The position numbers and the translations under genes are program-made. The notes under the pieces are model-generated. The model ran no database searches, had not been told where the DNA came from, and saw only the letters and a program-made list of their open reading frames with translations. From contig JAPKFG010000001.1 in the NCBI GenBank assembly GCA_028821675.1, forward strand, positions 7,890-71,889: a DNA stretch of 64,000 bases. The letters are read 5' to 3'. The DNA is from Candidatus Poseidoniales archaeon (lineage in GTDB: Archaea; Thermoplasmatota; Poseidoniia; Poseidoniales; Thalassarchaeaceae). The number at the start of each line of letters is the position of its first letter. The stretch's first letter is position 1. Below are positions 289 through 51,510 of this stretch, in pieces.

Positions 289-289
289 G

Positions 290-1051
290 ATGACTGACGA
301 TGTGACCTTCCGAGTCTTCCGGGGCGAACCTGATGAAGAGGGTGTGCCGACAGGAGAAATGGTTGACTACACCGTCGAGATGGATGAGGGCATGGTTGTT
401 CTCGATGTCATTCATCGAATCCAAGCAGAGCATGCACCAGATCTATCCTGCCGCTGGAATTGCAAGGCTGGAAAATGTGGTTCTTGCAGCGCAGAAGTCA
501 ATGGCAAGTCTCGGCTGATGTGCATGACGAGAATGGAAGACATCATGGAAGAGACCCCAGAGAATACTCCTGTGGTTGTCAAGCCGATGCAAGCTTTCCC
601 ACTCACCAAGGATTTGGTGAGTGATGTACAGTGGGCCTATGATCTCAACAAGACCATCCCCCCCCTCAAAGGCCCGGATGAAATGGATTGGAAATTCGAC
701 CAGATTGAAGCAGATCGAGTTCAAGAGTTCCGCTCTTGCATCGAGTGTATGCTGTGTGTCAACACATGTCACGTCATGAGAGAACACCAATTGTTTGACG
801 AATTTGCGGGCCCTCGCTTCTTTGTGCGCTTGGCCAATCTCGAAATGCATCCGATGGACGAAGAAAATCGCTTGGAGATGATCAAGGATGATTATGGAAT
901 CGGGTATTGTAACATCACGAGATGTTGCACCGATGTTTGCCCGGCAGGAATCAACATCACAGACAATGCAATCATTCCTCTAAAGGAACGCCTCGTCACG
1001 GAATATTATGATCCAATTGCAATGATTGCAAAGAAGATTGGACTGCGTTGA
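290..1051 (+). CDS. sdhB: succinate dehydrogenase iron-sulfur subunit
   Basis: Has the 2Fe-2S motif CRWNCKAGKCGSCSAEVNG plus cysteine clusters CIECMLCVNTC and CNITRCCTDVCP, typical of SdhB. GGAGGA lies upstream of the ATG at 290. An alternative in-frame ATG at 257 overlaps the sdhA end. Confidence 0.85.
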   Translation: MTDDVTFRVFRGEPDEEGVPTGEMVDYTVEMDEGMVVLDVIHRIQAEHAPDLSCRWNCKAGKCGSCSAEVNGKSRLMCMTRMEDIMEETPENTPVVVKPMQAFPLTKDLVSDVQWAYDLNKTIPPLKGPDEMDWKFDQIEADRVQEFRSCIECMLCVNTCHVMREHQLFDEFAGPRFFVRLANLEMHPMDEENRLEMIKDDYGIGYCNITRCCTDVCPAGINITDNAIIPLKERLVTEYYDPIAMIAKKIGLR

Positions 1052-1099
1052 TTCAATGCGCCACTAATTGATTAATAATTGAATTAAAAAAAGGCCCGC

Positions 1100-1121
1100 C
1101 AGAGGCACCGAAGCGCCTCTG
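1100..1121. terminator. hairpin between convergent sdhB and MC1 genes, likely a bidirectional terminator
   Basis: CAGAGGC / GCCTCTG 7-bp stem with an 8-nt loop. It is flanked by an A7 run (1086-1092, which reads T7 on the minus strand) and by T-rich sequence on the plus strand after 1121. Confidence 0.4.
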
Positions 1122-1173
1122 ACAAGCCTGTGTGTTATCTTGTTGTTACCGAATCAGATTCTTTCGTTTCCAA

Positions 1174-1452
1174 TCAAAGGTGATCAACGCGCTGCTTCTT
1201 GACGTTGGCTTTCTTAATCATGCCCGCCTTCTTCAGCCATGCCGGCGCTGAGGCCGGTGGTTTCACCATTGTTATCTCGCCCTTGAAGACGTGAACACGC
1301 TTGGTGCCACGCTCTCTCAGGTGTATGTCGGTTGCGCCACGAGTGGCTGCCTTCAGAGCCGCGCCTCGAGGCTGGCGGCTTGCGAAGACCTGGCTTGTGT
1401 CTTTTCCGTTCTCCATCAGAACAAAATATTTCTTATCTCCCATGAGTTTCAC
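1174..1452 (-). CDS. non-histone chromosomal protein MC1
   Basis: 92 aa, basic. The block QVFASRQPRGAALKAATRG..IHLRERGTKRVHVFKGE resembles Methanosarcina/haloarchaeal MC1 (TPRQAALKAA.RG..I.LRERGTKK.H.F.G). GAGGTGA lies 5 nt upstream of the ATG at 1452. Confidence 0.7.
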   Translation of the reverse strand: MKLMGDKKYFVLMENGKDTSQVFASRQPRGAALKAATRGATDIHLRERGTKRVHVFKGEITMVKPPASAPAWLKKAGMIKKANVKKQRVDHL

Positions 1453-1901
1453 CTCGAATAATACGCATTCTAGACCCTCCTTAAGGGTTACCCTAGTTAA
1501 ACGCTATACTGCGCCCCAAAATGGGGTATTTCTGATTTTTCGACATACTGTATAAAGTTGGTCGCAGGGTGCCGAAAATGATGAGTTTCTATGGAGAAAA
1601 GAGAAACCTAGACACCCATTCTCTTCTAGGCTTAGCAGTACAACGATTCGTTTGAAAATTGTCGATTTGAAGAATGGTTATCTTTGAAGGCGTTCTCAAT
1701 CAAGGAGGGGGATTACTAAGAAATATTGTGAGAAAATCATACGGCGACTCCTAAACGTGCCCCTGTATCCGATAATGCTTGAATCGACTCTGGAATGAGT
1801 AACTGAAATTGAGGATTCACAAATCGAGTGAATGCGAGAATGAATCTAGATGCTGAGATCAGTTAGACTCAATCATGTACAATAATCAATAATTAATCGG
1901 C

Positions 1902-4900
1902 TCATTCTTCTTCATTAATGATTCCAAGAATCTCCACATCGGAACTCTGCGTTTCATTCTCTTCGCGATAAGCTTCTATCTGTTCTTGAGTCCAACCTAC
2001 AGCAAGTAATTGTTCATCGCTCCATGCTTCCGTTTCCTGAGTTTCTAATCCAGCCATTTCAGATAGAATCTCGTCTGAGATGTCTTCATCTCTCTTGGCC
2101 CAGGCATGGTCAGGCAATTCATCATCTTCCTCAATGGGCATCTCTTCTCGGCGGCCAATCAATATCGATGTGAGTGCGATAAGCAGAATGAGTATAACAA
2201 AAATTCCGGCCACTGTGATGGTCGATGATGAACCATCCATACCTTGCTGAGTAGTGTTTTCTTCACTTGTTGTAACTGGAATAGCCTCGCGCGCGCGTAG
2301 GAGAAATGATTCCGATACTGAGAGTGATGTCTCATCGAGGCAAGCGAAGTAGAGTGTATGATTGGCTTCCGAACGTCCCGGTGGAGTCCATTCTTGAACC
2401 CACAACCCATCTGGTTCGGGGTGGTAAATTTGTGAAAACAATGTAATCTCATCTTTATCCTTCAGTAGGACAGAACACTCCATATTTTCAATTCCATCAG
2501 GGTCGCTAATTTCTACAATCAACGTCGACGTATTACCAGAAATTAATTCGATCGGCATCCGTGAGAAATCCAATTCTGGCTCGGAACCTCGTAATTCAAA
2601 AATCAATGTTTCTGAAAGTCCGGTTGTTCCATCGATATCTCTTAGATTCACGACCAATTCTACAGCCCCCAATGGCCAAGTCAAGAGATCGTCTGGATTG
2701 AGTTCCATTCGATAATATTGGGTGTGTTGTCCGGTTCCAGGCGCACAGGATGCAGGCGGAACTCCCTGTTCAAAGAAAATTGAACTAAATGCACTAGATG
2801 TGGGACCGGTAGGACCCAATCGAATACCTGCGTACTGTATGGGTCGTCCTCCTGTAATTCCAACCCAAATATCCGTACCTTCGGCACCCCGATTTATTGT
2901 ATCCACCAATATGTCATTCACACACAACGTGGGTGTCGAAATTTGAGGAGGGCTCAGGAACACGGGATGAGTCCAAGACCATTCCATATCAGCCCATATT
3001 CCACTCGTGATTCGAGTCGAAATAGACGCATCGCCAGATTCAAGATCGGGTGGAGCGGTGACGACATCTCCTTCCAACATTTGGTACCCTGCCCCAGGCC
3101 ATTCGATACTTGTCTCAACAGAATAGCTGGCTTGAGGGTCATCTTCGTCAATGATGTGAACCTGTATGCGATCTTGAGCCCCATCAAGATATGATTGACC
3201 ACCAATCGTCAATTCTGCATTCGGTGCCAAATCGATGGGCGTCAAACTGCGATTAGACCATTCAGTTCCATCTGCATGGAGGCTGATGAAAACAGGATCG
3301 AGGGTGCCGCCTGCTTGCGGTCTCCAAGAAGTCTGGTAACAGGTTTGACTGCCGCTAGTACTGGATACTGAAGGCGTGGGCAATTCATTGCCATCGACTC
3401 GGATTGAAGGGGTCTCAGTCTCGGTATTGTGATCCAAATCAATCACACATGCAGTCATCGCGTGATCTCTTCCACGAACCCAACCAGATGTGCCGTGTAT
3501 GGGTGGATCGATGCCGAGCCAAGGAGCCATGTCAGCCCCTTGGACATGAACACCATACCATGTTGCACTCGCATCCGTGATATTGAATGCGGCATCCCAG
3601 AAGGCCTCGACGCTCAACTCTTGTGCATCGTGAACGACCCAATAGAGATCCACACTGTCGAGAGGAGCGTCAGTTGGAAGGGAAATCGCCGCGGTCCAAA
3701 TCACGCCATCATTCTGTGAAGTGGCCGTAATCGGGAAGTATGTAGGATTGCTAGAATTGTTGTATCGCCAAGACAAGGTCGCTCCTGCGATACCAAAATC
3801 ATCGATGACGGAAATTCGACAAATGACCACACCGCCACGTGTCGCCGTCGTCGTTGAACAAGTCAATTCATCAATGGCCGGAGGTGCGTTAATTTCAATG
3901 TTCAGCAACGCGAGATTGTTGTCGACAACACGTTCGGGGTGTGCGTTCTCTGGAATCCAACGAACCAAGAATTCCACGAATCCTGTTCGAACTGGAGTGA
4001 CGTTTATGGGCAAGATGAGGCGACTTCCTACATCATTTCCACCTGGAATGGTCATCGAATGATTGGCCAAGAGAAGATTGTTTTGTCGATCCCTCACTTC
4101 AAGGAAACCGGTCGCTATGCCTGGAGCGAGATTCTCTAACAAAACCTCAAGCGTTCCGTTCTCTCCAATGGACAAACGATCAGGGGCGCGGACTTCAGAG
4201 ACGTTTACATCATGCAGACGGTCACCGTAGGCAGCCATCTTAGGATCTCCAATCACTGTGCCCATCCAAGAGAGAAGAACATTGGATGCCGCATAACATT
4301 CGGCCATCGTGTAACCATCTGCATAGCATGAGAACAATTGGTCTGGATTCGAAATAGCAGATAGATAGGGCTCGTAGACATAGCCTTTGACGCCAGAGAC
4401 GCCGTCATCAAGCAAATCAGCGATCAAACTCTGTCCGTAACTAGAATTGAACATGAATGTCCGTCCACCTGTACTCACGGCCGTCTCCGCAATACTGCCA
4501 TCTAACCAAGTGAAGTGAGGGCGAATTGGGTACAGTTTCAACGTATCAAAGAAAATCGAACCATTGTATGTTCCATCGGTGAATTCAGCAACTTGACGAA
4601 CAGCAAAACTAGTGGCACTTGCATCGGGGCGATATCGAAGTTGGCGGTTCTGCCAATCATCCGAGAAGGCCCTATCCTCAGAGGTGTTGACTGATAGCGA
4701 TGCGCCATTTGAATCGAAAGCTTCGACCTCTAGCCACCAATCACCTTCAACCCAACCTTCTCGCATCGAATATCCATCAAGAACCCAGGCATGTCCCTCA
4801 AAGTCGGCGTCGATGTCAAACACTTGTTCAACATAGGCAATCGAGTTGTTTGTGGTATTGAAGGTCGGACAAATCCATACGATTTCATCATGGACATCTG

Positions 4901-7031
4901 CAACCTCTTCTTCTGTCAGGGCAGCATCCCAAATTTGCACCTCGTCAATGACCCCGGTGAAATGTGTACTGCCAGCACGATTGACACCGAATTTGTAGAT
5001 TTCAATGCTGTTCACTGTCCCGTTGAGGACAGTCTGATTGAGCACCTCCACACCATCCAGATAGAGAGTTACGGTGTCATTAACGAAGGTGGCGACAAGG
5101 TGTTGCCAAACCGTTGGGTCGACCGCTCCGAAATTGTATGAGGAGTTGTGATACAATTCCCAATCTCCGGGGCTGCCACCTCCAGTCATAATTTGGAAAG
5201 AATCGTCATCTCCAGCAACATCATTCACGGCAATCGCTGAAGAATATCGTGGCTGCCCACTGTGATTGGCCTGAACCCAGAGGCTGACTGTGAAATCTGC
5301 CATAGTATCTTCGACGTCTACTCGGGCTTCATCATCCACACCATCAAAAAAGGCACAATTGCCCAAGACACAGGTTCGCCATTGGTTGCCATTGGTACCG
5401 GTGAAATTGAGATGAGCAGAACCCACAGAATCGTTGGCAACATCGCCGCTGTTCTCATCGAATTCCCAATGATGAATCAGGTCCACTTCTCTAACGGGAT
5501 AACTGCTTCCTCGTGTCAATACATTGGTTGGGACAGTTTGTTTGGACAAGCCCGGGCCTTCCCATTTGAGTTCCAATCCAGCATATCCACCATGCTCAAA
5601 GAATTCAGTTCGAAGTTCGTGTTCTCCCGCACCTAACCAGACTGTACCTGATCGCTCTTGCATGGCGTGGTGACCCTGATTGTCGACAATTTCGACATCA
5701 TCAATCCATAATTTTGATCCATCATCGCTTCGTAGATAAAACGTCCAATTACCAGCGGTTGGAATGTGAATGATGCCTGTGTGTCTTGCGCTCCAGTATT
5801 CAAGGAAGCGACTATCGAGGCCCGTCCAAGCGTTTTGTGTTGATGGCCAATCGAGATTCGGTTCATGCCGAACAAAATCTGGAGTTCGGTTCGAAAGGTT
5901 GACCATCGTGCTGACGTTGTATGTGACGCCATTGTTGTCGAAGTATTCAGCCAGCAGTCCATTGGTTGTCGACGCATCATTGGCCCCACATGAGGCGTCC
6001 TCAAGACGACCCTCCATCGCTGCATTTCCATTTCGTTTAGTCTCAGTCTGGCGGGCCCACCACCATTGTTCTCCAGGTGAAAGCGCTGGACCAATACCGT
6101 CCCAATATCGAGCGCCCGTCGGCCAACTGCCGTCGGATGTGTCGTAACCGGAATTGGACAACTCATTGCTGTCCCAAGAATCATCGTTGCTGCCCCAAGC
6201 GGAATACATTGAGAGGTTCTCCATATCGGTAACATAGGTACCATTCTGATTGAAGTGAACTGGGAAGCCCATGTTCGTCAGAGTTTCATTCGTTGTGTAG
6301 AGTAGGTCATTCCACCACTTGTATCCAGATCCATTTCGATTGGTAGCCAAATCGAGGACGGTTAATCCGTGTTGTCCCAAACTGGTGTTGGCTTTGGCGA
6401 TTAACCCCAAGGATGTATCGACATCATAACCGGTCAACCGAGTGACCAAATAGTACCCTTGCTCATCTCTCTGAAATGCTTTCATCTCATTGCCTGCAGC
6501 AGGCCCGTAGTTTGAATCGACATACCAATCAGCGAAGATGGATGGAGCATAGGGTCCGTCGATTAGGGCCAATTCTGAATCAAAGGAGGCACGAGAATTG
6601 GTCCCACCGTTGACACCGAGAGGTACGCCCTTCGTGGTGACTAGGACATTGATTTCAGTTAGATTACGTTCAGAAATCATCTGCAAAATAGGATTAGAGA
6701 AATAGGTCGTGAATTGATTGGAATTGATGATCTCGCTTGTTGGTGTGCTTTCATTTGTCAATAGAAGGACACGTTCCGGAGGGATATTGCGGGCCAGAGC
6801 GAAGGCGGTACCGATAGTTCGGCTCGCCTCACTTTGATTGTTGATGATGACTGCGACATCACTGTAGTCGGCAAAGGTTTGATGGGAAAATGGTTCCAGT
6901 ACGGCCACATCTCTGAACGGGGCTTCCTCCCACGCGTCCGCGTCGGCCCTCGCTTCCTCTGGAAGCGATACTGCGGTCCAACTCTGTAGTGAAATCAAGA
7001 GGACGAGGACGATGGCCAAGCGAGAGCGCAC
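1902..7031 (-). CDS. giant secreted surface glycoprotein (1709 aa) with PA14 and LamG-like domains, C-terminal TM anchor and acidic tail
   Basis: GTG start with GGTGA upstream. The N-terminal signal peptide is MRSRLAIVLVLLISLQSWTAVSLP. The PA14-like segment is LLAEYFDNNG...WTFYLRSDDGSKLWIDDVEIVDN. The LamG-like segment is CAFFDGVDDEARVD...TVTLYLDGVEV. There are dozens of N-x-S/T sequons. The C-terminal TM helix is ITVAGIFVILILLIALTSILIG, followed by a Glu/Asp-rich tail ending INEEE. Confidence 0.8.
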   Translation of the reverse strand: MRSRLAIVLVLLISLQSWTAVSLPEEARADADAWEEAPFRDVAVLEPFSHQTFADYSDVAVIINNQSEASRTIGTAFALARNIPPERVLLLTNESTPTSEIINSNQFTTYFSNPILQMISERNLTEINVLVTTKGVPLGVNGGTNSRASFDSELALIDGPYAPSIFADWYVDSNYGPAAGNEMKAFQRDEQGYYLVTRLTGYDVDTSLGLIAKANTSLGQHGLTVLDLATNRNGSGYKWWNDLLYTTNETLTNMGFPVHFNQNGTYVTDMENLSMYSAWGSNDDSWDSNELSNSGYDTSDGSWPTGARYWDGIGPALSPGEQWWWARQTETKRNGNAAMEGRLEDASCGANDASTTNGLLAEYFDNNGVTYNVSTMVNLSNRTPDFVRHEPNLDWPSTQNAWTGLDSRFLEYWSARHTGIIHIPTAGNWTFYLRSDDGSKLWIDDVEIVDNQGHHAMQERSGTVWLGAGEHELRTEFFEHGGYAGLELKWEGPGLSKQTVPTNVLTRGSSYPVREVDLIHHWEFDENSGDVANDSVGSAHLNFTGTNGNQWRTCVLGNCAFFDGVDDEARVDVEDTMADFTVSLWVQANHSGQPRYSSAIAVNDVAGDDDSFQIMTGGGSPGDWELYHNSSYNFGAVDPTVWQHLVATFVNDTVTLYLDGVEVLNQTVLNGTVNSIEIYKFGVNRAGSTHFTGVIDEVQIWDAALTEEEVADVHDEIVWICPTFNTTNNSIAYVEQVFDIDADFEGHAWVLDGYSMREGWVEGDWWLEVEAFDSNGASLSVNTSEDRAFSDDWQNRQLRYRPDASATSFAVRQVAEFTDGTYNGSIFFDTLKLYPIRPHFTWLDGSIAETAVSTGGRTFMFNSSYGQSLIADLLDDGVSGVKGYVYEPYLSAISNPDQLFSCYADGYTMAECYAASNVLLSWMGTVIGDPKMAAYGDRLHDVNVSEVRAPDRLSIGENGTLEVLLENLAPGIATGFLEVRDRQNNLLLANHSMTIPGGNDVGSRLILPINVTPVRTGFVEFLVRWIPENAHPERVVDNNLALLNIEINAPPAIDELTCSTTTATRGGVVICRISVIDDFGIAGATLSWRYNNSSNPTYFPITATSQNDGVIWTAAISLPTDAPLDSVDLYWVVHDAQELSVEAFWDAAFNITDASATWYGVHVQGADMAPWLGIDPPIHGTSGWVRGRDHAMTACVIDLDHNTETETPSIRVDGNELPTPSVSSTSGSQTCYQTSWRPQAGGTLDPVFISLHADGTEWSNRSLTPIDLAPNAELTIGGQSYLDGAQDRIQVHIIDEDDPQASYSVETSIEWPGAGYQMLEGDVVTAPPDLESGDASISTRITSGIWADMEWSWTHPVFLSPPQISTPTLCVNDILVDTINRGAEGTDIWVGITGGRPIQYAGIRLGPTGPTSSAFSSIFFEQGVPPASCAPGTGQHTQYYRMELNPDDLLTWPLGAVELVVNLRDIDGTTGLSETLIFELRGSEPELDFSRMPIELISGNTSTLIVEISDPDGIENMECSVLLKDKDEITLFSQIYHPEPDGLWVQEWTPPGRSEANHTLYFACLDETSLSVSESFLLRAREAIPVTTSEENTTQQGMDGSSSTITVAGIFVILILLIALTSILIGRREEMPIEEDDELPDHAWAKRDEDISDEILSEMAGLETQETEAWSDEQLLAVGWTQEQIEAYREENETQSSDVEILGIINEEE

Positions 7032-7054
7032 GGAATGTCACCCATACCCTGAAC

Positions 7055-7109
7055 TTTTCACCGTGTCGGCACCATGAGAACCGGCACCATAGGTGCCGTA
7101 AGGTGAAAA
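7055..7109. promoter_or_regulatory. GC-rich inverted-repeat element in the divergent promoter region of the giant surface protein gene and the macro-domain gene
   Basis: TTTTCACCGTGTCGGCACC ... GGTGCCGTAAGGTGAAAA imperfect palindrome, with an internal GGCACC/GGTGCC. The same TGCCGACAC/GTGTCGGCA core is found upstream of the second giant gene at 25060-25092. Confidence 0.35.
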
Positions 7110-7161
7110 TGAGGCGTTTTCGGCGATGGGCATAAATCCCACCGCCCCCCCCTGTCAATGT

Positions 7162-7800
7162 ATGTCCGACGTAATCATCGCTAGGGAATGCCGTCATTCC
7201 ATGTTACGAGTGATTGCAGGGGACCTAACTCGATACGAAGCTCAAGTCGCAGTCACATGTGCCAGCAATCGTCTTGCTGGACGTGAAGGTTTGGATGCCA
7301 AGATGCACACTGCAGCAGGCGAAAAATTGCGCGAGACTTGTGTCGAGATCGGAAAAATACAGCGGGCTCAAAATCTGCAGCCTTGTCCCGTGGGAACTGC
7401 TGTGACAACCGTTGCCTTTGATTTACCTCACGAACACTTGATTCATGTCGTTGGCCCAGATTGTCGTCGGCCCAGTCAAGATGAAGGACGTCGAGAACTC
7501 ATTGTCAAAGCCTACGAAGCGATGTTTGAGCAAGTAGCAGCATTGGGTGGTGTGGAAACGATTGTTTGCCCACCACTTTCCATGGGCATCTATGCTTATC
7601 CTCATCGCGAAGGCGCACGGATGACAATGGAGATTCTACTCGGTTGGCTCGATGCAGAAGAACAACCTGGTGTGAATGATTTTGTGTTGCTTGTAAATGA
7701 CGAAATGTTTGTCAAAAATTTGAAAACGGTCTACCGAGAATCTGAAGACCAATTTCCTGGCGTAGATTGTACACGAAAATTCCGCAAACGCCGCTTCTGA
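7162..7800 (+). CDS. macro domain protein (ADP-ribose / O-acetyl-ADP-ribose processing family)
   Basis: VIAGDLTRYEAQVAVTCASNRLAG..GLDAKMHTAAGEKL...IHVVGP...LGGVETIVCPPLSMGIYAYP matches the macro domain signature (IxxGDIT..ad.IVNAAN..L.GGGV..AIh.aaG, G-x-Y-G). The start is uncertain; alternative ATGs lie at 7126 and 7204. Confidence 0.7.
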   Translation: MSDVIIARECRHSMLRVIAGDLTRYEAQVAVTCASNRLAGREGLDAKMHTAAGEKLRETCVEIGKIQRAQNLQPCPVGTAVTTVAFDLPHEHLIHVVGPDCRRPSQDEGRRELIVKAYEAMFEQVAALGGVETIVCPPLSMGIYAYPHREGARMTMEILLGWLDAEEQPGVNDFVLLVNDEMFVKNLKTVYRESEDQFPGVDCTRKFRKRRF

Positions 7801-7801
7801 T

Positions 7802-7873
7802 GCGCACGTGATCTAGCGGTTATGATGTATGGTTCCCAACCATGCCACCCGGATTCAAATTCCGGCGTGCGCA
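7802..7873 (+). tRNA. tRNA-Gly(CCC): tRNA-Gly (anticodon CCC)
   Basis: The acceptor stem GCGCACG/CGTGCGC is 7 bp. The anticodon stem TATGG/CCATG flanks the loop TTCCCAA, and the T arm is CCGGA-TTCAAAT-TCCGG. U8, GG in the D loop, U33 and discriminator A are present. CCA is not encoded. Confidence 0.8.
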
Positions 7874-7874
7874 C

Positions 7875-9710: not shown

Positions 9711-10622
9711 ATGCGCGATTTCGTAGAACACCACTTTCGTCACTTCAATGCCGGAGAATTGCGTCGGTGTACAGAATCACTCCGAGATTTCATCGCAAAT
9801 GATGGGCGATTGATGATTACCTTGGCCGGAGCCATGAGTACAGCGGAGATTGGGCGCAGCCTTGCGCCAGCTATTCGTGCGGGGAAAATTCACGCAATTT
9901 GCTGCACAGGTGCCAATCTTGAGGAGGATCTCTTCCATTTGATTGCGGCTTCACATTATGGGGATGTGCCTAATTGGAGAGACCTTTCACCAAATGAAGA
10001 ATCCCAATTGATAAATCGAATTACCAATAGGACAATTCCAGAAGGAAAAGCAATACGAAAAGTTGAATCTCAATTGATTTCTTTGTGGAAAGACACACCT
10101 GCACGATTGCCCCATGAATTCCTGTATGATTTAGTAAAAAAGGTAGAGGCTGATGCGAATCCAGATGATTCATGGCTCCTAGCCGCAGCTGAGGCCAACC
10201 TACCACTGTTCGTACCAGGATGGGAAGATTCGACCCTAGGCAACATCTTCGCTGCACGAGTCATTGATGGCACCGTAGATGTGAATACTGTTCTCAGTGG
10301 CACACACTACATGCTGGCGTTGGCGACATGGATTCGAGAACATCCCATCAACGGCTTCCTACAGGTGGGGGGTGGAATCGCCGGTGATTTCCCCATCTGT
10401 GTGGTCCCGATGCTGCGTCAAGATCTGGGTGAAGATGTTCCCCTTTGGGCATGGTTTGCACAAATCTCCGAATCGCGCCCATCCTATGGTGGATACTCAG
10501 GGGCGCCACCAAATGAGAAGATTGGTTGGGGGAAACTTGGTGTTGAAACACCGAAGTTCGTTATCGAATCTGATGCGACAATCGTATTGCCCATTATCCT
10601 GACTTCTCTGCTCGACGAGTAA
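9711..10622 (+). CDS. deoxyhypusine synthase-like paralog lacking the catalytic lysine (possible pseudoenzyme)
   Basis: Its DHS-fold motifs are MITLAGAMSTAEIG, AICCTGANLEEDLF and the C-terminal GYSGAPPNEKIGWGKLG. Where canonical DHS, including the second copy at 51511, has GGGISKHH, this protein has VGGGIAGDF. So the Lys and both His residues are replaced. Confidence 0.65.
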   Translation: MRDFVEHHFRHFNAGELRRCTESLRDFIANDGRLMITLAGAMSTAEIGRSLAPAIRAGKIHAICCTGANLEEDLFHLIAASHYGDVPNWRDLSPNEESQLINRITNRTIPEGKAIRKVESQLISLWKDTPARLPHEFLYDLVKKVEADANPDDSWLLAAAEANLPLFVPGWEDSTLGNIFAARVIDGTVDVNTVLSGTHYMLALATWIREHPINGFLQVGGGIAGDFPICVVPMLRQDLGEDVPLWAWFAQISESRPSYGGYSGAPPNEKIGWGKLGVETPKFVIESDATIVLPIILTSLLDE

Positions 10623-10661
10623 GGCATAGCCTCAAATCGGCGATACCGCACCTACGGTGCG

Positions 10662-16104: not shown

Positions 16105-16198
16105 TACTTAACTCTCGGTTGTATAGTGGGAGTATCTTGTCCTATATGAAGGATTGGAAGGCGGCGGATTCAAGGGAGAGACATGGGTGGGCCATTCG

Positions 16199-24942: not shown

Positions 24943-25059
24943 TCTGATTCAACATCCTGCCTGATACTACTTCAGGCCGAAATCTGCGAAACTATTGGCA
25001 CTGTTGAGTGTTCGCCTCCAACGGGCCCTAACGGGCCCGGAATAGATTGAAAGCCGAAG

Positions 25060-25092
25060 GTGCCGAGTGTCGGCATAGCCGACAGGGCGACG
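25060..25092. promoter_or_regulatory. palindromic GC-rich element upstream of second giant surface protein gene
   Basis: aaGGTGCCGAGTGTCGGCAtaGCCGACAgg contains the palindrome TGCCGA-GTG-TCGGCA. It shares GGTGCCG and GTGTCGGCA with the element at 7055-7109, and lies 15-48 nt upstream of the ATG at 25107. Confidence 0.35.
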
Positions 25093-25106
25093 GGAGCGAG
25101 GAATGT

Positions 25107-28100
25107 ATGCGAAAGGTGGCTATTTTTATCATCGCAGTATTGCTTTTTTCCTCTGCACTGCCATTTGCATCTGCGGTGACTGAGACTCAATATTCCGATG
25201 GAAGTTCGACTTTTACGCATGTCTTCAGCCAAACTGGAGATGCCGACACACCCGGTGTGACGTTGCCATACGGAGCCAATGTAGAAAATGTGGAGTTCGA
25301 AGTCGAAGGTTCGGCCTCCACGGTAACCTGGATGAATCGAACAACAGATGCTGATTTCGGGGGGCAAGGACAAACTGGTTCAGGCCAACAGAGTTGGTAC
25401 ATCAATCAAAACGGCTGGTACTACGGATATAAGCAGAATGTGAAAGTTGACAATAATCAAGTCGAACTTCGGCCAACGGACGATACCACATATTGGTCGA
25501 TGAGCAATCAGAACGATATGGCATCATCTACCGGTGGTAGCCTGAATACAACCGGGCAGTATTTCTCATCCGCCGAGGCGGGATTCAACGGAATCACCAA
25601 TACTAGCACAATGAGCACGAGCGGGGGGATCTGGGGCTACATGGGACCTGTCGTCAAGCAGGGCGATGAACTCCACGTGGTTCGCTACTTGAGTGTGTCA
25701 TCGTATGGTGGTTATCAACTGGGTTCAATCAACCGGTACAATGCAACCACAGGAGCCTCTCTTGGAACTGCAACTATCTCGTACAACAACTGTTCGAATC
25801 TCAATGTATACTACCTCACAGACGCGACTAGTGATGGCGAGGGCACGGTTTGGATGACTTCTTTCTATCAAAGTTTGAGCACCTATGCTGGGATTACGAA
25901 ATGGTCGGTGTCTTCCACCGCCAATGGTGTAACCTACACCTGTGATAGTTACTGGGCTACCTTGGAAGTTGGAGGCATATCCATCGACCCTGAAACCAAT
26001 GATATGTACGTAGTACAGCGTACTCGAGCCAGCAACCAATACGACATGGATCTATGGAGAGTGAGTCGCAGCCAACCAAATGTCGCATTGCAGACTTGGA
26101 GCCTAGGTACAATTTCGCCTTCAGGCAGTATGGGTATGGCTTCTTCTTACGTCAAACCCGCTGGACTGTCTGTACAAATGCCGCGAATCGCGGTCAATGT
26201 CTATTGCTACTACTACACATACACTTACTCTTACTGTGATGAAAATCGCTTGTCATGGGTAAACGTCTATCACCAGCGTTCCAATTGGCCTGAGTTGCAA
26301 GGTGAGATTCCCAGTCCCTACGCCATATTAGGCATGGAGAATATTGAGGGTCAATTGGCAGCCACTTGTTTCTACGGCTCAAGCACGGCCTACTGCCCAA
26401 GTCCAACCAGTCGAAAGATCTTGATGACAGGAGGCAGTGCTGCGGATTGGATGGGGACTCCTTCATCCAGCACCGCTACAATCACGTCAAGCATAGAAAC
26501 ACTGAATCGTCCACTCAGTGAATTGAGATTGGGATTGACGGCAACATGGGAACCGGCAGGGACCTCCATAGATTTTGAAATCACCAACGATGGGGGGACC
26601 ACTTGGAAGCGTGCCAACAGTGCGGGGCAGACAATCACATTCGCGAATGCGGGCACCCAATTGGCGTGGCGAGCGTGGCTGAATGGAACGGCCTCAGCGG
26701 CGCCACTGATTGATACGGTGGGGCTTACCTATACTGCAACATACGCGTCCACTGGTCAGTTCAGAATGTACAGTTCATCCACCGCTGCACATCCAGTTGC
26801 TGCTACCGTCTATTGGAATGCATCAACTCCAGGTGGAAGTTCAGTGGATGTCTACTTCAGAGACAGTTCATCTACCTGTACGAGTGGAACCAGAGTCAAT
26901 GTTCCAAGTTCAGGATCGACCGTTTCGTTCACCTCAACGTCCGGATATCTTTCAATTTGTTTTGATTTGGATGCGGGCACGAACAATCAGTATTCTCCTA
27001 TTCTCTACGATGTAAATATTGCAACCTATTCCAATGCGCCACGCGACGTCAAGATTGACATCGGGGGCGATGGATCATACGAGTGGGACTATGATGGCGT
27101 TTTGATTGGGACAACGACCGCACAGTCGTCGTCTAGCAGCGGTCAAAATATGGAGAATGCCTTCAACAATATCGTTCCACAAACTGGTTCAGGAACTATT
27201 GTTGTGCCTGTCAAGGTCCATTCGGCCTCTGCAGGTAAAGTCAAGATTACATCAATGAGCATAGAATACACGATGGTGACGGTCAATCTCGATATCAACT
27301 TTGATGAGAATATGGTTCTCCACGAACGAGGAGACCCCTATGAAATCGTCACAAGACACGTGATTGGTGACGAGGCGTTGAGTATCACCGATGCTGAACT
27401 GACGTTCCTCGCTTCGCCGAATTCAGATGCGCCCAAATTATCGTGGGCTCAAGATGGAACGCTGGTCGATGATGATCCCGAAGATTGGATTATCCCAGAT
27501 CAGAGTGCGACGTGGACGAATCTATCCAACGGTATCTTTGAGATTCATTGGATGTTCCGAGTGACTGACGATTTCCCCGAGCAAAACAATGTCGGATGGC
27601 GGGTTTCATGCACCGATGACAACGGATTCGCCCCTGCAACCCTTTCCACAGGTGCCACTGGCATTGTGGTCAACCAGTCGTATGGCCTGGGTTGGTTCAC
27701 CATCCATGATGTAGAAGGGGAAGTAATCAACGATAATGTGCAGAATGGTGATTGGGTCGTCGGTGGTGAAACCATTCACTTCCAAGGCCAAGTCTGGTTC
27801 GAGGGAACACAAGATGCACCCCTGAACTCAGTATTCGACATCAGAATCGCCCGCAAGGACAGTCAAGGTGATTTCATCTCTTCCACTTGGAAGGACAATT
27901 CAAATCCAAATGGAACATTCTTCATCTCAGTCGCTGTTCCAGACATGGATATTCCCGAAGGTGTGACATTCGAAGTACAGGCTTACAATGTTCGTGACCC
28001 GACCAAGGTCATGCCAACGGACGATTCATGGAGGCGAACGTTGCGAATCGATGATTCAACCCCCGAAATCATCGATTCTTGGCCTGCTGATGGTGACTAT

Positions 28101-30227
28101 GAAGCCAGTTCAGTCGACAAACAGGTCGTTGTAACCATCGAAGATACAGTTGGACATCCAGAAGAACTCACGCTCAATTATTGGGTCGAAGCTGATCATG
28201 ACACCAACCGAAATGGGGAGGCGGATGCTGATGAATATGTCATGCAAACGATGACCAATTTAACAGAGGAAGAAGAGAAGAACTTCTTCGGATATATCGA
28301 TGATTCACGCAACCCGAACATGGCTAGAGTGTCCTATTTCGTCACTGGTAATGACCCCGCCGGAAATCTGCTATTAGGAAATGATGGGGCTGGATTTGCT
28401 TACGATTTATCCACCTATCTGACACGACAAGACATGGCTTCAGTGTTCACTGGCTTGATTTGGCATGATCATGCCGATGGAACCGATGTGTTCAGCGGAA
28501 CGGATCAATCAATATCCATCGGTCTTGTCGATGCGAACGGCATCATCGATTTCGAATACATCTCAATCATCTACGACTTTGAGGGACCGGATCCCGAAAG
28601 AGACCAACAAAAGATTTCCTACAATGGGCGAACCGACGCCTGGACTTCGGAAAGTGACTTCATCACCTTGCAGCCGAGCAGCTCTGCTGAAGTGACGACA
28701 AACGACACAGGTCTTCCATGGGTTCAGGTTACATTTGATTTCCAATTCTCTTGGGATTGGCCGGACGAGGACATTTCTGACCTCGCGCTTGAGTACAAAG
28801 AACTGGGTTCACCAACACCCACTCGAATAGAGTTCATTGAACACACATTCAGTGTAGAAAATGATCTGGTACTCGACGCAGCGACCTACGTTGTCGAAGA
28901 CGTGGCTGAACCTCGAACCGGGCCTCTTGATGATGCAACACCAGTTAGACCGGACGACCGTCTTCGATGGTCGGGCCGAGTCGTGTATGAGAGCAGTAGT
29001 GTTCCAGCTCCAAATGATCTGGGCATCACCGTCGAGGTCTTCGATGGGGTTCAGTATTGGTCCGATGGAAGTCTAACCGATGATGGCGCCTTCAGCATTG
29101 AAGTTCCACTCTCAGCAGCCACAACATTGCAGAGTGCAGAAACTCGTACTTTCCTTACCGGTGTGCGCAATGTGCCTGGACGAGGTGAAGACATGACCCG
29201 CGATACTGTGGCAACAACATTGCAACTACAGGTCGATCACACGCCACCTCGAGTGCACTATCGCCTTACACCTGTCGATGTCATCGACATCTCGGCCGCA
29301 TCTGATTTGACATCGGTTCCGGTTCGATTCTCAGGATGGGAGGAATGTGTATTGCTTGAGGGTGATGACCGATGTGCCGCATTCAGCCAATCACCACAAT
29401 GGGTGAATTGGGTTATGCGTGACGACGCACGAACGATTGCTGCTGGACAATCTCAACTGGCGATGCAATTGAACGGCACGACCCTAGAATGGATTGGTGA
29501 AGTGGACTTGACCAGTGATGGCTTGGTGACCCCTAGAAGTGGATACAAAGTTGGATTCTGGGTGACTGGTCATGATGCAGCGGGGAATGAATTTCCGATG
29601 GCGGCAAACACTGAAAGTGACCCTGTTCGGGAACATGAAGACCTAGATGGTGATCAAAATCTCGCATGGGTTCTACTTGGAGCGACGGTGGCAGAACTCA
29701 TCGTCAAGAGTGTTACACTGGACCAAGACACCGTCAGCGAAGGGACAGATATTGAAGTCGTTACCATCATTGCAAATACTGGTGGGGTGACTGAATCCTC
29801 ATTCTCTGTGCATTTCGTTACCGATGAGGGTGTGATTGACACCGTTCGAATCACCGGTCTACCCAGTGGCGGTGAACATCGAATTACCACTACGTGGACC
29901 GCAAAAGAGGGGGTCGATCGCATCACTGTGATTGTCGATGCTGAAAATGAGGTCGTCGAGGTTGACGAAGAAGGCAATTCTATGTCCGCAGGAGTTTCTG
30001 TAGAGTATTCATGGGGCCTTGGATGGGTCGATAGTTGGAGGCAAAATCCGCTCACTGTCATCGGCATACTCTTCACATTGATTCTATTGCCAATCATTGC
30101 CAGAATTACGTGGAAAACCTCACTCTCAGGTTCAACCAGTCTCTATGATGAAGAACTCATGTATGAAGACGAAGATGATGATGAATGGGAAGATGATGAC
30201 GATGATGATGATGACGGTTGGGAGTAA
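25107..30227 (+). CDS. giant secreted surface glycoprotein (about 1700 aa) with CARDB-like domain, C-terminal TM anchor and poly-Asp tail
   Basis: Start set at MRKVAIFIIAVLLFSSALPFASA (signal peptide, GAGG 6 nt upstream). The ORF-track start at 25047 would bury the signal peptide. The CARDB-like block is TLDQDTVSEGTDIEVVTIIANTGGV...VDAENEVVEVDEEGNS. N-x-S/T sequons are very abundant. The C-terminal TM helix is LTVIGILFTLILLPIIARI, followed by EDEDDDEWEDDDDDDDDGWE. Confidence 0.8.
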   Translation: MRKVAIFIIAVLLFSSALPFASAVTETQYSDGSSTFTHVFSQTGDADTPGVTLPYGANVENVEFEVEGSASTVTWMNRTTDADFGGQGQTGSGQQSWYINQNGWYYGYKQNVKVDNNQVELRPTDDTTYWSMSNQNDMASSTGGSLNTTGQYFSSAEAGFNGITNTSTMSTSGGIWGYMGPVVKQGDELHVVRYLSVSSYGGYQLGSINRYNATTGASLGTATISYNNCSNLNVYYLTDATSDGEGTVWMTSFYQSLSTYAGITKWSVSSTANGVTYTCDSYWATLEVGGISIDPETNDMYVVQRTRASNQYDMDLWRVSRSQPNVALQTWSLGTISPSGSMGMASSYVKPAGLSVQMPRIAVNVYCYYYTYTYSYCDENRLSWVNVYHQRSNWPELQGEIPSPYAILGMENIEGQLAATCFYGSSTAYCPSPTSRKILMTGGSAADWMGTPSSSTATITSSIETLNRPLSELRLGLTATWEPAGTSIDFEITNDGGTTWKRANSAGQTITFANAGTQLAWRAWLNGTASAAPLIDTVGLTYTATYASTGQFRMYSSSTAAHPVAATVYWNASTPGGSSVDVYFRDSSSTCTSGTRVNVPSSGSTVSFTSTSGYLSICFDLDAGTNNQYSPILYDVNIATYSNAPRDVKIDIGGDGSYEWDYDGVLIGTTTAQSSSSSGQNMENAFNNIVPQTGSGTIVVPVKVHSASAGKVKITSMSIEYTMVTVNLDINFDENMVLHERGDPYEIVTRHVIGDEALSITDAELTFLASPNSDAPKLSWAQDGTLVDDDPEDWIIPDQSATWTNLSNGIFEIHWMFRVTDDFPEQNNVGWRVSCTDDNGFAPATLSTGATGIVVNQSYGLGWFTIHDVEGEVINDNVQNGDWVVGGETIHFQGQVWFEGTQDAPLNSVFDIRIARKDSQGDFISSTWKDNSNPNGTFFISVAVPDMDIPEGVTFEVQAYNVRDPTKVMPTDDSWRRTLRIDDSTPEIIDSWPADGDYEASSVDKQVVVTIEDTVGHPEELTLNYWVEADHDTNRNGEADADEYVMQTMTNLTEEEEKNFFGYIDDSRNPNMARVSYFVTGNDPAGNLLLGNDGAGFAYDLSTYLTRQDMASVFTGLIWHDHADGTDVFSGTDQSISIGLVDANGIIDFEYISIIYDFEGPDPERDQQKISYNGRTDAWTSESDFITLQPSSSAEVTTNDTGLPWVQVTFDFQFSWDWPDEDISDLALEYKELGSPTPTRIEFIEHTFSVENDLVLDAATYVVEDVAEPRTGPLDDATPVRPDDRLRWSGRVVYESSSVPAPNDLGITVEVFDGVQYWSDGSLTDDGAFSIEVPLSAATTLQSAETRTFLTGVRNVPGRGEDMTRDTVATTLQLQVDHTPPRVHYRLTPVDVIDISAASDLTSVPVRFSGWEECVLLEGDDRCAAFSQSPQWVNWVMRDDARTIAAGQSQLAMQLNGTTLEWIGEVDLTSDGLVTPRSGYKVGFWVTGHDAAGNEFPMAANTESDPVREHEDLDGDQNLAWVLLGATVAELIVKSVTLDQDTVSEGTDIEVVTIIANTGGVTESSFSVHFVTDEGVIDTVRITGLPSGGEHRITTTWTAKEGVDRITVIVDAENEVVEVDEEGNSMSAGVSVEYSWGLGWVDSWRQNPLTVIGILFTLILLPIIARITWKTSLSGSTSLYDEELMYEDEDDDEWEDDDDDDDDGWE
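30166..30215 (+). repeat. imperfect (GAT/GAC)n trinucleotide run encoding the poly-Asp/Glu tail
   Basis: gaagacgaagatgatgatgaatgggaagatgatgacgatgatgatgatgac is a coding low-complexity repeat. Confidence 0.5.
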
Positions 30228-32711: not shown

Positions 32712-32759
32712 CCTCGGTTAACGGTCGCCTTGAAATGGCCTTTGTGAGTCGCCTGAGAC

Positions 32760-34889: not shown

Positions 34890-34906
34890 CGGTTCCGTAG
34901 GAACCG
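34890..34906. terminator. hairpin between the presenilin-like gene and serS
   Basis: CGGTTCC-GTA-GGAACCG, a perfect 7-bp stem, sits 10 nt upstream of the serS ATG. Confidence 0.3.
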
Positions 34907-40732: not shown

Positions 40733-40779
40733 CCCTTAGGGGGTGCGAATACGGGCTTGGCCTTGAACACTCGCCCGTT

Positions 40780-42856: not shown

Positions 42857-42921
42857 CTGCCTAGCATTGTAGGCGGCCCGGCGACCGACTTCCCCTTTAT
42901 GAGCGTGCGTATGGCTAAGCC

Positions 42922-42936
42922 GAGCCCGTAGGGCTC
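42922..42936. terminator. hairpin immediately downstream of the ccmF stop
   Basis: GAGCCC-GTA-GGGCTC, a perfect 6-bp stem overlapping the stop codon. Confidence 0.3.
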
Positions 42937-45142: not shown

Positions 45143-45146
45143 CGGA

Positions 45147-46373: not shown

Positions 46374-46471
46374 TGAAAGGGTTTGCAGTGAATACGGGCC
46401 TTGAATCAGTCGGTGCCGTAGGCACCGGCGCACTTCCGCTGGATTTGATAGGAAGAACGTTTCCGGCGACC

Positions 46472-51496: not shown

Positions 51497-51510
51497 GCCA
51501 AGCCGTTCCC

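What the first reader, a model, noticed from the sequence alone, without database searches (positions are those of the whole stretch)
7032..7125. Shared GC-rich palindromic element upstream of both giant surface-protein genes
Giant gene 1 (minus strand, GTG start at 7031) is preceded by CCGTGTCGGCACC...GGCACC...GGTGCCG (7061-7097), flanked by TTTTCACC/GGTGAAAA arms. Giant gene 2 (ATG at 25107) is preceded by GGTGCCGAGTGTCGGCATAGCCGACAGG (25060-25092). Both contain GGTGCCG and the 9-mer GTGTCGGCA, which together form TGCCGA-N3-TCGGCA dyads. In both genes the element sits 15-50 nt upstream of the start codon. These are the two largest, most glycosylated proteins in the window. A common operator or 5-prime-UTR hairpin could co-regulate adhesin expression, for example phase or condition dependent.
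Basis: seen in the sequence. Interest (0 to 1): 0.5.

Follow-up and report, generated by a model that had tools for sequence, protein, structure and literature searches.

The report
Conserved promoter hairpin dyads, not adhesin-specific
Both giant surface-protein genes of this marine archaeon have a conserved short palindrome just upstream, but the two palindromes differ and belong to a wider class also found at housekeeping genes, so they do not show a special adhesin switch.

Summary
The window comes from a Marine Group IIb archaeon (Thalassarchaeaceae). Only part of it matters.

- **Conserved.** Related genomes keep two different perfect 7-3-7 dyads. CGGCACC-ATA-GGTGCCG (7082-7098) lies in the spacer between gene 1 and a macro-domain gene. 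TGTCGGC-ATA-GCCGACA (25068-25084) lies upstream of gene 2.
- **Not related.** Profile and covariance-model searches see no relation between the two sites beyond the 9-mer GTGTCGGCA.
- **Unexplained coincidence.** That 9-mer sits in the invariant core of both sites, at the same distance from both start codons but inverted. This suggests a link but proves nothing.
- **True relatives of the site-1 dyad.** They match CGG-NN-CC-RTA-GG-NN-CCG (3 in the window against 0.07 expected). They lie before seryl-tRNA synthetase, in a GGR-like/UbiD spacer, and before threonyl-tRNA synthetase in a relative.
- **A wider class.** All six non-coding dyads of this geometry have a C-RTA-G or C-TAY-G centre (0.29 expected).
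- **Position kept, sequence replaced.** Distant homologs carry different palindromes at matching positions.

My best reading is generic hairpin-forming elements at or near transcription start sites. A 5'-terminal mRNA hairpin is slightly favoured over a DNA operator. Neither is specific to adhesins.

The parts
1902..7031 (-). Giant gene 1 (1709 aa): signal peptide, TIGR03790-like N-terminus, PA14 and LamG domains, C-terminal TM segment and acidic tail
   Evidence: The GTG start is conserved in 11/11 relatives.
7037..7043 (-). GGGTGAC (read on the minus strand), Shine-Dalgarno-like, 5 nt before the GTG
   Evidence: Largely conserved in alignment A1; it deviates in L004, L012, L014 and L015. Its function is inferred.
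7054..7061 (.). A/T-rich box CTTTTCAC (GTGAAAAG on the gene-1 strand). Probable TATA box of gene 1, possibly used in both directions.
   Evidence: AA.TTTT.AC is invariant in 11 relatives. Its centre is 26.5 nt from the GTG, matching the 25.5-27.5 nt seen at other apparently leaderless genes of the window. Its centre plus 25.5-27.5 nt on the plus strand gives 7083-7085, the 5' edge of the dyad (inference).
7063..7071 (.). GTGTCGGCA, the 9-mer shared with site 2 (TGCCGACAC on the gene-1 strand, -40..-32 from the GTG)
   Evidence: TGTCGG is invariant in 11/11 relatives. Position-matched test.
7082..7098 (.). Site-1 dyad CGGCACC-ATA-GGTGCCG, a member of the family CGG-NN-CC-RTA-GG-NN-CCG
   Evidence: In one search, 89.6% of cells are paired, and one pair changes C-G to T-A in 4 relatives. 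The dyad is lost in L015. Family statistics.
7102..7109 (.).
   Evidence: The outer helix is only 54.5% paired in relatives, and the G/C positions are mostly unpaired.
7129..7164 (+). Macro-gene core promoter: GGCATAAATCC box, C8 run (7145-7152), conserved ATG 7162
   Evidence: Alignment A1. Macro domain found.
24959..24977 (.). GCCTGA-N7-TCAGGC dyad around an A/T-rich box, 17-35 nt before the ATG (24942) of the divergent membrane-protein gene 24139-24942
   Evidence: helix 1: 78% of cells paired, with one double change in 3 sequences.
25003..25012 (.). GTTGAGTGTT, invariant upstream block of unknown role
25022..25039 (.). CGGGCCC-TAAC-GGGCCCG dyad (also a direct repeat, AACGGGCCC twice) just upstream of the A/T-rich box
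   Evidence: helix 2: 84% of cells paired, no double change.
25038..25053 (+). CGGAATAGATTGAAAG, a long A/T-rich box and probable BRE/TATA of gene 2
   Evidence: CGGAATAG.TT.A.A is invariant in 11 relatives. The 35%-identical homolog L170 has TTGAAA at a matching distance.
25061..25075 (.). Its left arm is not conserved.
25068..25084 (.). Site-2 dyad TGTCGGC-ATA-GCCGACA, centred 31 nt before the ATG
   Evidence: The arms are invariant in 11 aligned sequences and in L171; the loop is ATA, GTA or ACA. L170 has TGGGCC-GAA-GGCCCA centred at the same 31 nt.
25092..25101 (+). Purine-rich, Shine-Dalgarno-like stretch GGGAGCGAGG
   Evidence: Similar GGAG/GGCGG stretches occur in relatives, with variable spacing of 20-22 nt. 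Inference.
25107..30227 (+). Giant gene 2 (1706 aa): signal peptide, CARDB domain, C-terminal TM segment and acidic tail
34890..34906 (.). Family member CGGTTCC-GTA-GGAACCG, 10-26 nt before the ATG of seryl-tRNA synthetase (34916)
46411..46427 (.). Family member CGGTGCC-GTA-GGCACCG between a GGR-like oxidoreductase gene (minus) and a UbiD gene (plus)
   Evidence: Placing it in the spacer is an inference from where the Pfam domains begin.
10647..10661 (.). Class member CGCACC-TAC-GGTGCG abutting the ATG of a secreted M14 carboxypeptidase gene
   Evidence: CACACC/GGTGTG in L013 and L014, and in L012 with one N in the loop.
42921..42935 (.). Class member GAGCCC-GTA-GGGCTC at the end of gene 42935-45181, upstream of an FKBP gene

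Best explanation
**What it is.** The two sites are two different conserved promoter-region dyads of a Marine Group IIb archaeon. They are not copies of one adhesin operator. Each is a perfect GC-rich dyad with 7-bp arms and a 3-nt centre containing TA. Each lies a short distance downstream of a conserved A/T-rich, TATA-like box.

**The wider class.** The same kind of dyad occurs at four other non-coding places in the window. The site-1 dyad fits a tight sub-family, CGG-NN-CC-RTA-GG-NN-CCG. Its other members precede housekeeping genes.

**Why pairing seems to be selected.** Arm sequences differ between loci but are always complementary. Distant homologs carry a different palindrome at the same or a similar position. 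I therefore think the selected property is the ability to pair.

**Most likely mechanism (inferred, not shown).**
- Transcription starts about 26 nt after the A/T box, at the first pyrimidine-G step of the dyad.
- The mRNA then begins with a stable stem-loop. In the leadered cases a Shine-Dalgarno-like stretch and the start codon follow.
- Such a 5'-terminal hairpin would set mRNA stability or translation in a generic way.

**Site 1 specifically.** Gene 1 itself looks leaderless, with the GTGAAAAG box centred 26.5 nt before the GTG. The dyad would then belong to a rightward transcript from the same box, or it would act as upstream DNA.

**The shared 9-mer.** GTGTCGGCA may be a protein-binding half-site common to both genes. 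That part is unproven.
For: - **Organism and synteny.** Thermosome-anchored loci are MGIIb MAGs with the same gene order.
- **Conservation at site 1.** Block AACTTTTCAC..TGTCGG and the dyad are kept in 10/11 relatives. There is one compensatory pair (C-G to T-A) and a free loop: ATA, TAT, TGT or ACT.
- **Conservation at site 2.** The stretch -110..-20 is 73-91% identical to the relatives. The first 300 nt of the coding sequence are only 67-74% identical, and the last 19 nt before the ATG only 46-64%. The dyad arms are invariant.
- **Position kept, sequence replaced.**
  - L170 (35% aa identity) has TGGGCC-GAA-GGCCCA centred 31 nt before the ATG, exactly as in the window. Its TTGAAA box starts 27 nt before the dyad centre, against 29 nt in the window.
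  - L173 (60% gene-1 ortholog) has TCAGTAT-AAA-ATACTGA about 54 nt before its start. The window's dyad is centred 59 nt before the GTG.
- **Family.** CGGNNCCNNNGGNNCCG occurs 3 times against 0.07 expected. All three are perfect palindromes in non-coding DNA. A fourth lies before ThrRS in L008. The NN positions are always complementary (CA, TT, TG, CC, and TA in the ortholog variant).
- **Class.** Six dyads have a C-RTA-G or C-TAY-G centre against 0.29 expected. Only 1 occurs in 304 kb of thaumarchaeal control DNA. All six are non-coding.
- **Leader layout.** Hairpin, then SD-like stretch, then ATG is seen at SerRS, ThrRS and gene 2.
- **TATA-to-start calibration.** 25.5-27.5 nt at the macro gene, gene 1, and the genes at 32760 and 57518.
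- **Density.** About six such dyads in 64 kb, with no transcription-factor gene found in the window. One dedicated factor per dyad is therefore unlikely.
Against: - There are no transcription start data. The A/T-rich boxes are long. The TTGAAA-type register puts the start within about 5 nt of the dyad centre (gene 2, SerRS, ThrRS, 46411, L170). In that case only half of the dyad is transcribed and no RNA hairpin forms.
- The constant TA at the centre looks like an archaeal initiator step. That also favours a start at the centre.
- RNA folding of the leaders is only modestly better than shuffles (z -1.5 and -1.7).
- RNAalifold finds no covariation at site 2.
- Covariation at site 1 is a single pair, probably a single event.
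- In L005 the site-1 variant is an A.C mismatch on the plus strand (G.U on the minus strand). This does not fit a plus-strand RNA.
- Symmetric variable positions are also what operators of paralogous dimeric factors show.
- The site-1 dyad is absent from L015, L175 and L176.
Confidence: 0.42

Rival explanations
1. **DNA operators.** The dyads are binding sites for dimeric archaeal transcription factors. At gene 2 the site straddles the start site and would act by repression, blocking RNA polymerase recruitment. At gene 1 and the macro gene it lies upstream of both core promoters and would act as an activator or dual site.
For: - The dyads have perfect two-fold symmetry.
- With the TTGAAA-type box as TATA, the predicted start falls at the dyad centre. 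For gene 2 the box centre is 25049.5, and adding 25.5-27.5 nt gives 25075-25077. The same holds at L170 and 46411.
- The site-1 dyad lies 59 and 72 nt from two apparently leaderless start codons, so it need not be transcribed.
- The CGG/CC positions are conserved while the NN positions are variable but symmetric. This is the pattern seen with paralogous factor families.
- From own knowledge: operators that overlap the start site are the commonest archaeal repression layout (for example NrpR, TrmB-family, Phr, MDR1).
Against: - No transcription-factor gene is in the 64-kb window.
- About six different dyads in 64 kb implies far more specificities than a roughly 2-Mb genome is likely to encode.
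- Targets include SerRS and ThrRS, which are not obvious targets of dedicated regulators.
- Whole-arm replacement in L170 and L173 at the same or a similar position needs the factor to co-evolve.
Confidence: 0.27
2. **The first reader's model.** One common operator or hairpin, defined by the GTGTCGGCA / GCCGACA core, co-regulates the two giant surface-protein genes.
For: - The 9-mer is shared, and its core is invariant in both sets of orthologs.
- It sits at -39..-32 and -40..-33 from the two start codons. This is the best position-matched non-trivial pair among 1275 pairs.
- TGTCGGC occurs 4 times in 3.4 kb of non-coding DNA and 12 times in 60.6 kb of coding DNA.
- A 48%-identical gene-1 homolog in a different gene context (L174) has CCGACAC at -37..-31.
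Against: - The orientation relative to the gene is opposite at the two sites.
- At gene 1 there is only a half-site. TGTCATG-AT-GCCGACA in most relatives is degenerate and 1 nt shorter than the site-2 dyad.
- Relative to the probable TATA boxes, the motif lies just upstream of the box at gene 1 but about 20 nt downstream of it at gene 2.
- Profile and covariance-model searches find no relation between the sites.
- L173, L175, L176 and L170 lack the motif.
- Three of the five 9-mer copies in the window are in coding sequence.
Confidence: 0.12
3. **A new promoter feature.** These are start-site-centred palindromic initiators. In this lineage a 15-17-bp GC-rich dyad with a central TA marks the transcription start itself. 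It acts on the DNA or open complex and needs no specific regulator.
For: - Predicted starts fall within about 5 nt of the dyad centre at five promoters.
- Every class member has TA at the centre.
- The class is specific to this lineage (1 in 304 kb of thaumarchaeal DNA).
Against: - The TATA registers are ambiguous.
- GC-rich DNA around the start should hinder melting.
- The dyads at 10647 and 42921 and the site-1 dyad do not fit one geometry.
- I know of no precedent.
Confidence: 0.12
4. **Structured RNA.** The 90-nt conserved block upstream of gene 2 is a structured non-coding RNA or a riboswitch-like leader.
For: The block is more conserved than the adjacent coding sequence. nhmmer scores are 82-97 bits among relatives.
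Against: - There is no Rfam match, even at E<=10.
- RNAalifold gives an unfavourable covariation term and only one pair with a double change, in 2 sequences.
- Most of the block lies upstream of the probable TATA box.
Confidence: 0.04

Closest known systems
Archaeal promoter-proximal palindromic operators (for example NrpR GGAA-N6-TTCC, TrmB-family TATCAC-N5-GTGATA, Lrp/FFRP 13-bp sites with an A/T centre). Named from my own knowledge, not tested here.
   Same: Short perfect dyads at or next to the BRE/TATA box and the start site. The centre is A/T-containing. They are conserved among relatives.
   Different: The sequences match none of these consensus sites. No cognate factor is identified. 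The arm sequences vary between loci at a density that argues against one factor per site.
Bacterial 5'-terminal stem-loop mRNA stabilisers (for example the ompA 5' UTR hairpin). Named from my own knowledge.
   Same: A GC-rich hairpin at the predicted 5' end, followed by an SD-like stretch and the start codon. The hairpin is generic rather than gene-specific.
   Different: The organism is an archaeon. The 5' ends are not mapped. The same dyad geometry also occurs where transcription is not expected (the gene 1/macro divergent spacer).
REP elements, GTAG- or CGTC-tagged (Di Nocera et al. 2013, PMC3733652)
   Same: Small GC-rich extragenic palindromes in several copies per genome. Some copies contain the letters GTAG.
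   Different: REPs are 20-40 bp, carry the tag unpaired at one end, lie mostly downstream of genes between unidirectional or convergent ORFs, and are linked to RAYT transposases. The dyads here are 15-17 bp, and GTAG (where present) spans the loop. They lie in 5' regions, including divergent spacers, and are held at syntenic positions across genera.

Membership tests
   nhmmer cross-searches give E about 17-88. Covariance model R1 does not list 25068-25084 at E<=10.
   The TGTCGG(C) core is kept in 11/11 relatives at both sites. GGTGCCG at site 2, TGCCGA-N3-TCGGCA and the outer GGTGAAAA arm are not kept. More distant homologs lack the core, except L174.
   TGTCGGC occurs 4 times in 3.4 kb of non-coding DNA and 12 times in 60.6 kb of coding DNA. 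The numbers are small, and two of the four are the two arms of one dyad.
Archaeal transcription-factor operator | Dyad symmetry at or next to the core promoter | tested here: inconclusive
   Symmetry is met. Position relative to the start site is inferred from A/T boxes only.
Archaeal transcription-factor operator | A cognate DNA-binding protein that binds the site | not testable with these tools
   Pfam scans found no HTH-type regulator among the window ORFs scanned. Five ORFs at the 3' end (57983, 59936, 61024, 62014, 62545) were not scanned.
5'-UTR RNA hairpin | The stem is kept by compensatory changes | tested here: inconclusive
   There is one double change at the site-1 dyad (4 sequences) and one at the 10647 dyad. 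Site 2 has none. Whole-stem replacement occurs in L170 and L173.
5'-UTR RNA hairpin | The whole dyad is transcribed | not testable with these tools
   No start-site data are available. The MGII TSS table of PMC5069720 is not held.
5'-UTR RNA hairpin | The leader folds better than shuffled sequence | tested here: inconclusive
   z is -1.46 for the gene 2 leader and -1.70 for the gene 1 strand.
REP / GTAG-tagged palindromic repeats | 20-40 bp, an unpaired GTAG or CGTC tag at one end, mostly downstream of ORFs | tested here: not met
   The dyads are 15-17 bp. GTAG, where present, spans the loop. They lie in 5' regions and divergent spacers.
Rfam RNA families | Match to any of 4227 covariance models | tested here: not met
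   At gathering thresholds only two tRNAs match. Neither site gives anything credible at E<=10.
Phase-variation switch | A length-variable simple repeat, or an invertible segment with a recombinase | tested here: not met
   Neither site has such a repeat. The C8 run at 7145-7152 keeps 7-8 C in all relatives. No recombinase gene was seen in the Pfam scans.

The most novel reading that the evidence does not exclude
Marine Group IIb archaea may carry a previously undescribed, lineage-specific class of 15-17-nt GC-rich dyads with a central TA. The core sub-family is CGG-NN-CC-RTA-GG-NN-CCG. These dyads would mark the transcription start or the very 5' end of a subset of mRNAs, including giant surface proteins, a secreted peptidase, SerRS and ThrRS. 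They would be read by a general factor or act through structure. Layered on this, a GCCGACA half-site at about -39..-33 may tie the two giant surface-protein genes together.
Probability: 0.25. Interest if true: 0.6.

Novelty: new member of a known kind. Interest (0 to 1): 0.38.

Why it matters
Marine Group II archaea are among the most abundant planktonic archaea and have never been cultured. I found no study of their promoters or cis-regulatory elements in the library searched.

The comparative alignments made here give concrete candidates that can be tested:
- TATA-like boxes about 26 nt before apparently leaderless start codons.
- A recurring class of conserved dyads.

If the dyads mark mRNA 5' ends or start sites, they would help with three tasks:
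- annotating starts in MGII MAGs;
- interpreting metatranscriptomes;
- understanding how costly 1,700-aa surface proteins are expressed.

The specific claim of an adhesin co-regulation switch is weak, so the practical value is moderate.

Tried and rejected
- **Viral contig scan** for TGTCGGCNNNGCCGACA. It returned more than 120 unrelated hits in GC-rich viral contigs and was uninformative.
- **Rfam**, at gathering thresholds and at permissive E-values, on both sites and on 1400-1950. Nothing was found.
- **RNAalifold** on the gene 2 upstream alignment. It showed no covariation. An earlier call (27) included a junk sequence and is disregarded.
- **Contig look-up** for the window's own protein 24139-24942. 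It is not on record, so the search for metatranscriptome contigs ending at a start site failed.
- **Second protein search** with an alignment of gene 2 N-termini. It added no useful distant homologs, so L170 remains the only distant one.
- **Literature search** for MGII promoter motifs or start sites. Hou et al. 2016 mapped MGII start sites, but the table is not held.
- **A/T-content profile** upstream of all start codons. It shows no single peak, so leaderless and leadered genes are mixed.
- **tRNA mimicry** at the SerRS and ThrRS dyads. I considered it by reading the sequences and rejected it: a 7-bp stem with a 3-nt loop does not resemble an anticodon arm.
- **REP elements.** Rejected on their defining features.
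- **Gene duplication** as the source of the shared 9-mer. Rejected because the two proteins are unrelated.
- **N-terminal extension of gene 2** from TTG 25047. Rejected because the spacing to the ATG varies by 1-2 nt among relatives.
Full report
**Source and layout**

The thermosome gene of the window (16154-17773) retrieves MAG contigs named Candidatus Thalassarchaeaceae, Poseidoniales or MGIIb at 72-96% identity. tblastn shows the same gene order from gene 1 to the rhodanese gene in ten of them. The window is 95% coding; only 3,367 nt lie outside my ORF map.

- Gene 1 (1902-7031, minus strand, 1709 aa) has a signal peptide, PA14 and LamG domains, and an N-terminus that public records name TIGR03790.
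- Gene 2 (25107-30227, 1706 aa) has a signal peptide and a CARDB domain.
- The two proteins are not related to each other.

**Checking the observation**

All quoted strings are at the quoted coordinates. Three statements need correcting.

- TGCCGA-N3-TCGGCA exists only at site 2. It occurs once in 346 kb of MGII DNA, in this window only.
- The site-1 element lies 30-66 nt, not 15-50 nt, from the GTG.
- The neighbouring macro-domain gene starts at the conserved ATG 7162.

The dyads actually present are CGGCACC-ATA-GGTGCCG (7082-7098) and TGTCGGC-ATA-GCCGACA (25068-25084).

**Comparative evidence, site 1**

Alignment A1 covers the window and ten syntenic loci. The spacer between gene 1 and the macro gene keeps its length and three blocks.

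- Block 1 is AACTTTTCAC followed by TGTCGG, invariant in all 11 sequences.
- Block 2 is the dyad, kept in 10/11. Four relatives have GGTACC on both arms. The loop is free (ATA, TAT, TGT, ACT). In one search, 89.6% of cells pair.
- Block 3 is GGCGATGGGCATAAATC, a run of 7-8 C, and ATGTATG.

The outer GGTGAAAA arm is not conserved (54.5% paired).

**Comparative evidence, site 2**

Ten metagenome loci carry gene 2 orthologs with 61-78% aa identity. Alignments A2 and A4 show an upstream block of about 90 nt that is more conserved than the coding sequence.

| Stretch | Identity to relatives |
|---|---|
| Upstream block, -110..-20 | 73-91% |
| First 300 nt of the coding sequence | 67-74% |
| Last 19 nt before the ATG | 46-64% |

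Invariant parts of the block are GTTGAGTGTT, CGGAATAG.TT.A.A and the arms TGTCGGC/GCCGACA.

**Are the two sites one element?**

- nhmmer profiles of each site do not retrieve the other (E about 17-88).
- A covariance model of the site-1 dyad family does not list 25068-25084 at E<=10.

What remains is the 9-mer GTGTCGGCA. It occurs 5 times against 0.52 expected, and three of the copies are in coding sequence. Its core is invariant in both alignments. It occupies -39..-32 (gene 1, inverted) and -40..-33 (gene 2) from the start codons. Among 1275 pairs of upstream regions, only one AT-rich 9-mer pair equals this, once divergent spacers that are trivially shared are set aside. A 48%-identical gene-1 homolog in another gene context (L174) has CCGACAC at -37..-31. 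L173, L175 and L176 do not. This suggests a link but is post hoc.

**The site-1 dyad has other relatives**

- CGGNNCCNNNGGNNCCG matches exactly three times in the window against 0.07 expected: at 7082, at 34890 (10-26 nt before the seryl-tRNA synthetase ATG), and at 46411 (between a GGR-like gene and a UbiD gene).
- A fourth member, CGGCCCC-ATA-GGGGCCG, precedes threonyl-tRNA synthetase in L008.
- All are perfect palindromes with an RTA centre. The NN positions are always complementary.
- More broadly, all six dyads of the window with arms of at least 6 bp, a 3-nt loop and a C-RTA-G or C-TAY-G centre are non-coding. Their starts are 7083, 10647, 25069, 34891, 42922 and 46412. The expected number is 0.29, with a maximum of 2 in 200 shuffles. 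The 304-kb thaumarchaeal control has 1.
- The 10647 dyad abuts the ATG of a secreted M14 peptidase gene and changes on both arms in relatives.

At the level of this class, then, the two giant genes do share an element type. They share it with housekeeping genes.

**Position kept, sequence replaced**

- The only distant gene 2 homolog (L170, 35% aa identity) has TTGAAA and then TGGGCC-GAA-GGCCCA. That palindrome is centred exactly 31 nt before its ATG, as in the window.
- A 60%-identical gene 1 ortholog (L173) has TCAGTAT-AAA-ATACTGA at about -54, against -59 in the window.

**Where transcription probably starts (inference)**

- Several genes have one conserved A/T box centred 25.5-27.5 nt before the start codon. 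These are the macro gene (CATAAATC), gene 1 (GTGAAAAG), the gene at 32760 (TTGAAATG, in a 48-nt divergent spacer with a single box) and the gene at 57518 (TGAAATAG). This fits leaderless mRNAs and the usual archaeal TATA-to-start distance (own knowledge).
- Other genes have the box 46-66 nt upstream plus an SD-like stretch, so they are leadered.
- For gene 2, the register ATTGAAAG predicts a start at 25075-25077, in the dyad loop. The register GGAATAGA predicts 25068-25070, at the dyad's first bases. SerRS, ThrRS and 46411 show the same ambiguity.
- At site 1, CTTTTCAC read rightwards predicts 7083-7085, the 5' edge of the dyad.

**Weighing the mechanisms**

| Points to | Evidence |
|---|---|
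| Pairing, hence an RNA hairpin | Variable but complementary arms; whole-stem replacements; compensatory changes; the layout of hairpin, then SD-like stretch, then AUG; a pyrimidine-G step at every dyad edge; about six different dyads in 64 kb with no regulator gene nearby |
| A DNA role at the start site | The TTGAAA-register spacing; the constant central TA; the site-1 dyad lying upstream of two apparently leaderless genes; modest folding z-scores; no covariation at site 2 |

I put the 5'-terminal RNA hairpin at about 0.4 and a factor operator at about 0.27. The parts I regard as robust (about 0.8) are these:

- The dyads are conserved.
- The two dyads differ from each other.
- They are promoter-associated.
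- They belong to a general class and are not specific to adhesins.

**Comparison with known systems**

There is no Rfam match. The dyads are not REP elements by size, tag position, location or synteny. They work like either archaeal start-site operators or bacterial 5' stem-loop stabilisers, and membership in either cannot be tested without start-site or binding data. There are no signs of phase variation.

**Verdict**

This is a new member of a known kind. Interest is moderate (0.38). It comes mainly from the lineage-specific dyad class in an uncultured, abundant archaeal group, not from the proposed adhesin switch.

Noticed in passing
window 7126-7164 and 7145-7152: The macro-domain ORF is over-extended. 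The conserved start is ATG 7162, with a GGGCATAAATC box centred 27.5 nt upstream. A C8 run between the box and the start keeps 7-8 C in all 11 relatives.
   Followed up: partly
window 7802-7874: tRNA-Gly(CCC) begins one base after the macro gene's stop codon.
   Followed up: no
window 32712-32759: A 48-nt divergent spacer has a single A/T box (TTGAAAT, 32731-32737). It lies about 20-29 nt from both start codons (box centre 23 and 26 nt away). It looks like one TATA box serving two leaderless genes.
   Followed up: partly
window 10647-10661; L012-L015 around 4503: The CGCACC-TAC-GGTGCG dyad abuts the ATG of a secreted M14 carboxypeptidase gene. Relatives have CACACC/GGTGTG, a change on both arms.
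   Followed up: partly
window 34890-34906; L008 18605-18621: Near-identical dyads of the form CGG-NN-CC-RTA-GG-NN-CCG sit 10-16 nt before the start codons of two class II aminoacyl-tRNA synthetase genes: SerRS here and ThrRS in a relative. Each is followed by an SD-like stretch.
   Followed up: partly
window 24959-24977: A GCCTGA-N7-TCAGGC dyad surrounds the A/T-rich box of the divergent membrane-protein gene. Relatives have GCCAGA/TCTGGC.
   Followed up: partly
window 1453-1901: This is the largest non-coding stretch of the window (449 nt), between the end of gene 1 and an MC1 chromatin-protein gene. The same junction is only 127 nt in L174. There is no Rfam match, and the fold z-score is -1.9.
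   Followed up: partly
L174 9182-16382 compared with window 257-7800: In a 1.99-Mb MGII contig the gene 1 homolog follows sdhA/sdhB in the same direction, with the MC1 and macro genes downstream. The gene 1 segment is therefore inverted in this window relative to that genome.
   Followed up: no
window 40729-40746: The GCACCCC-TTAG-GGGGTGC dyad overlaps the GTG start of the carboxyltransferase gene 39116-40732, about 23 nt downstream of a TTTGAAAC box. It could sequester the start codon.
   Followed up: no
window 9711-10622 and 51481-52488: Two deoxyhypusine-synthase-family genes lie in one 64-kb window. The second matches the Pfam DS model far better (E 3e-91 against 5e-37).
   Followed up: no
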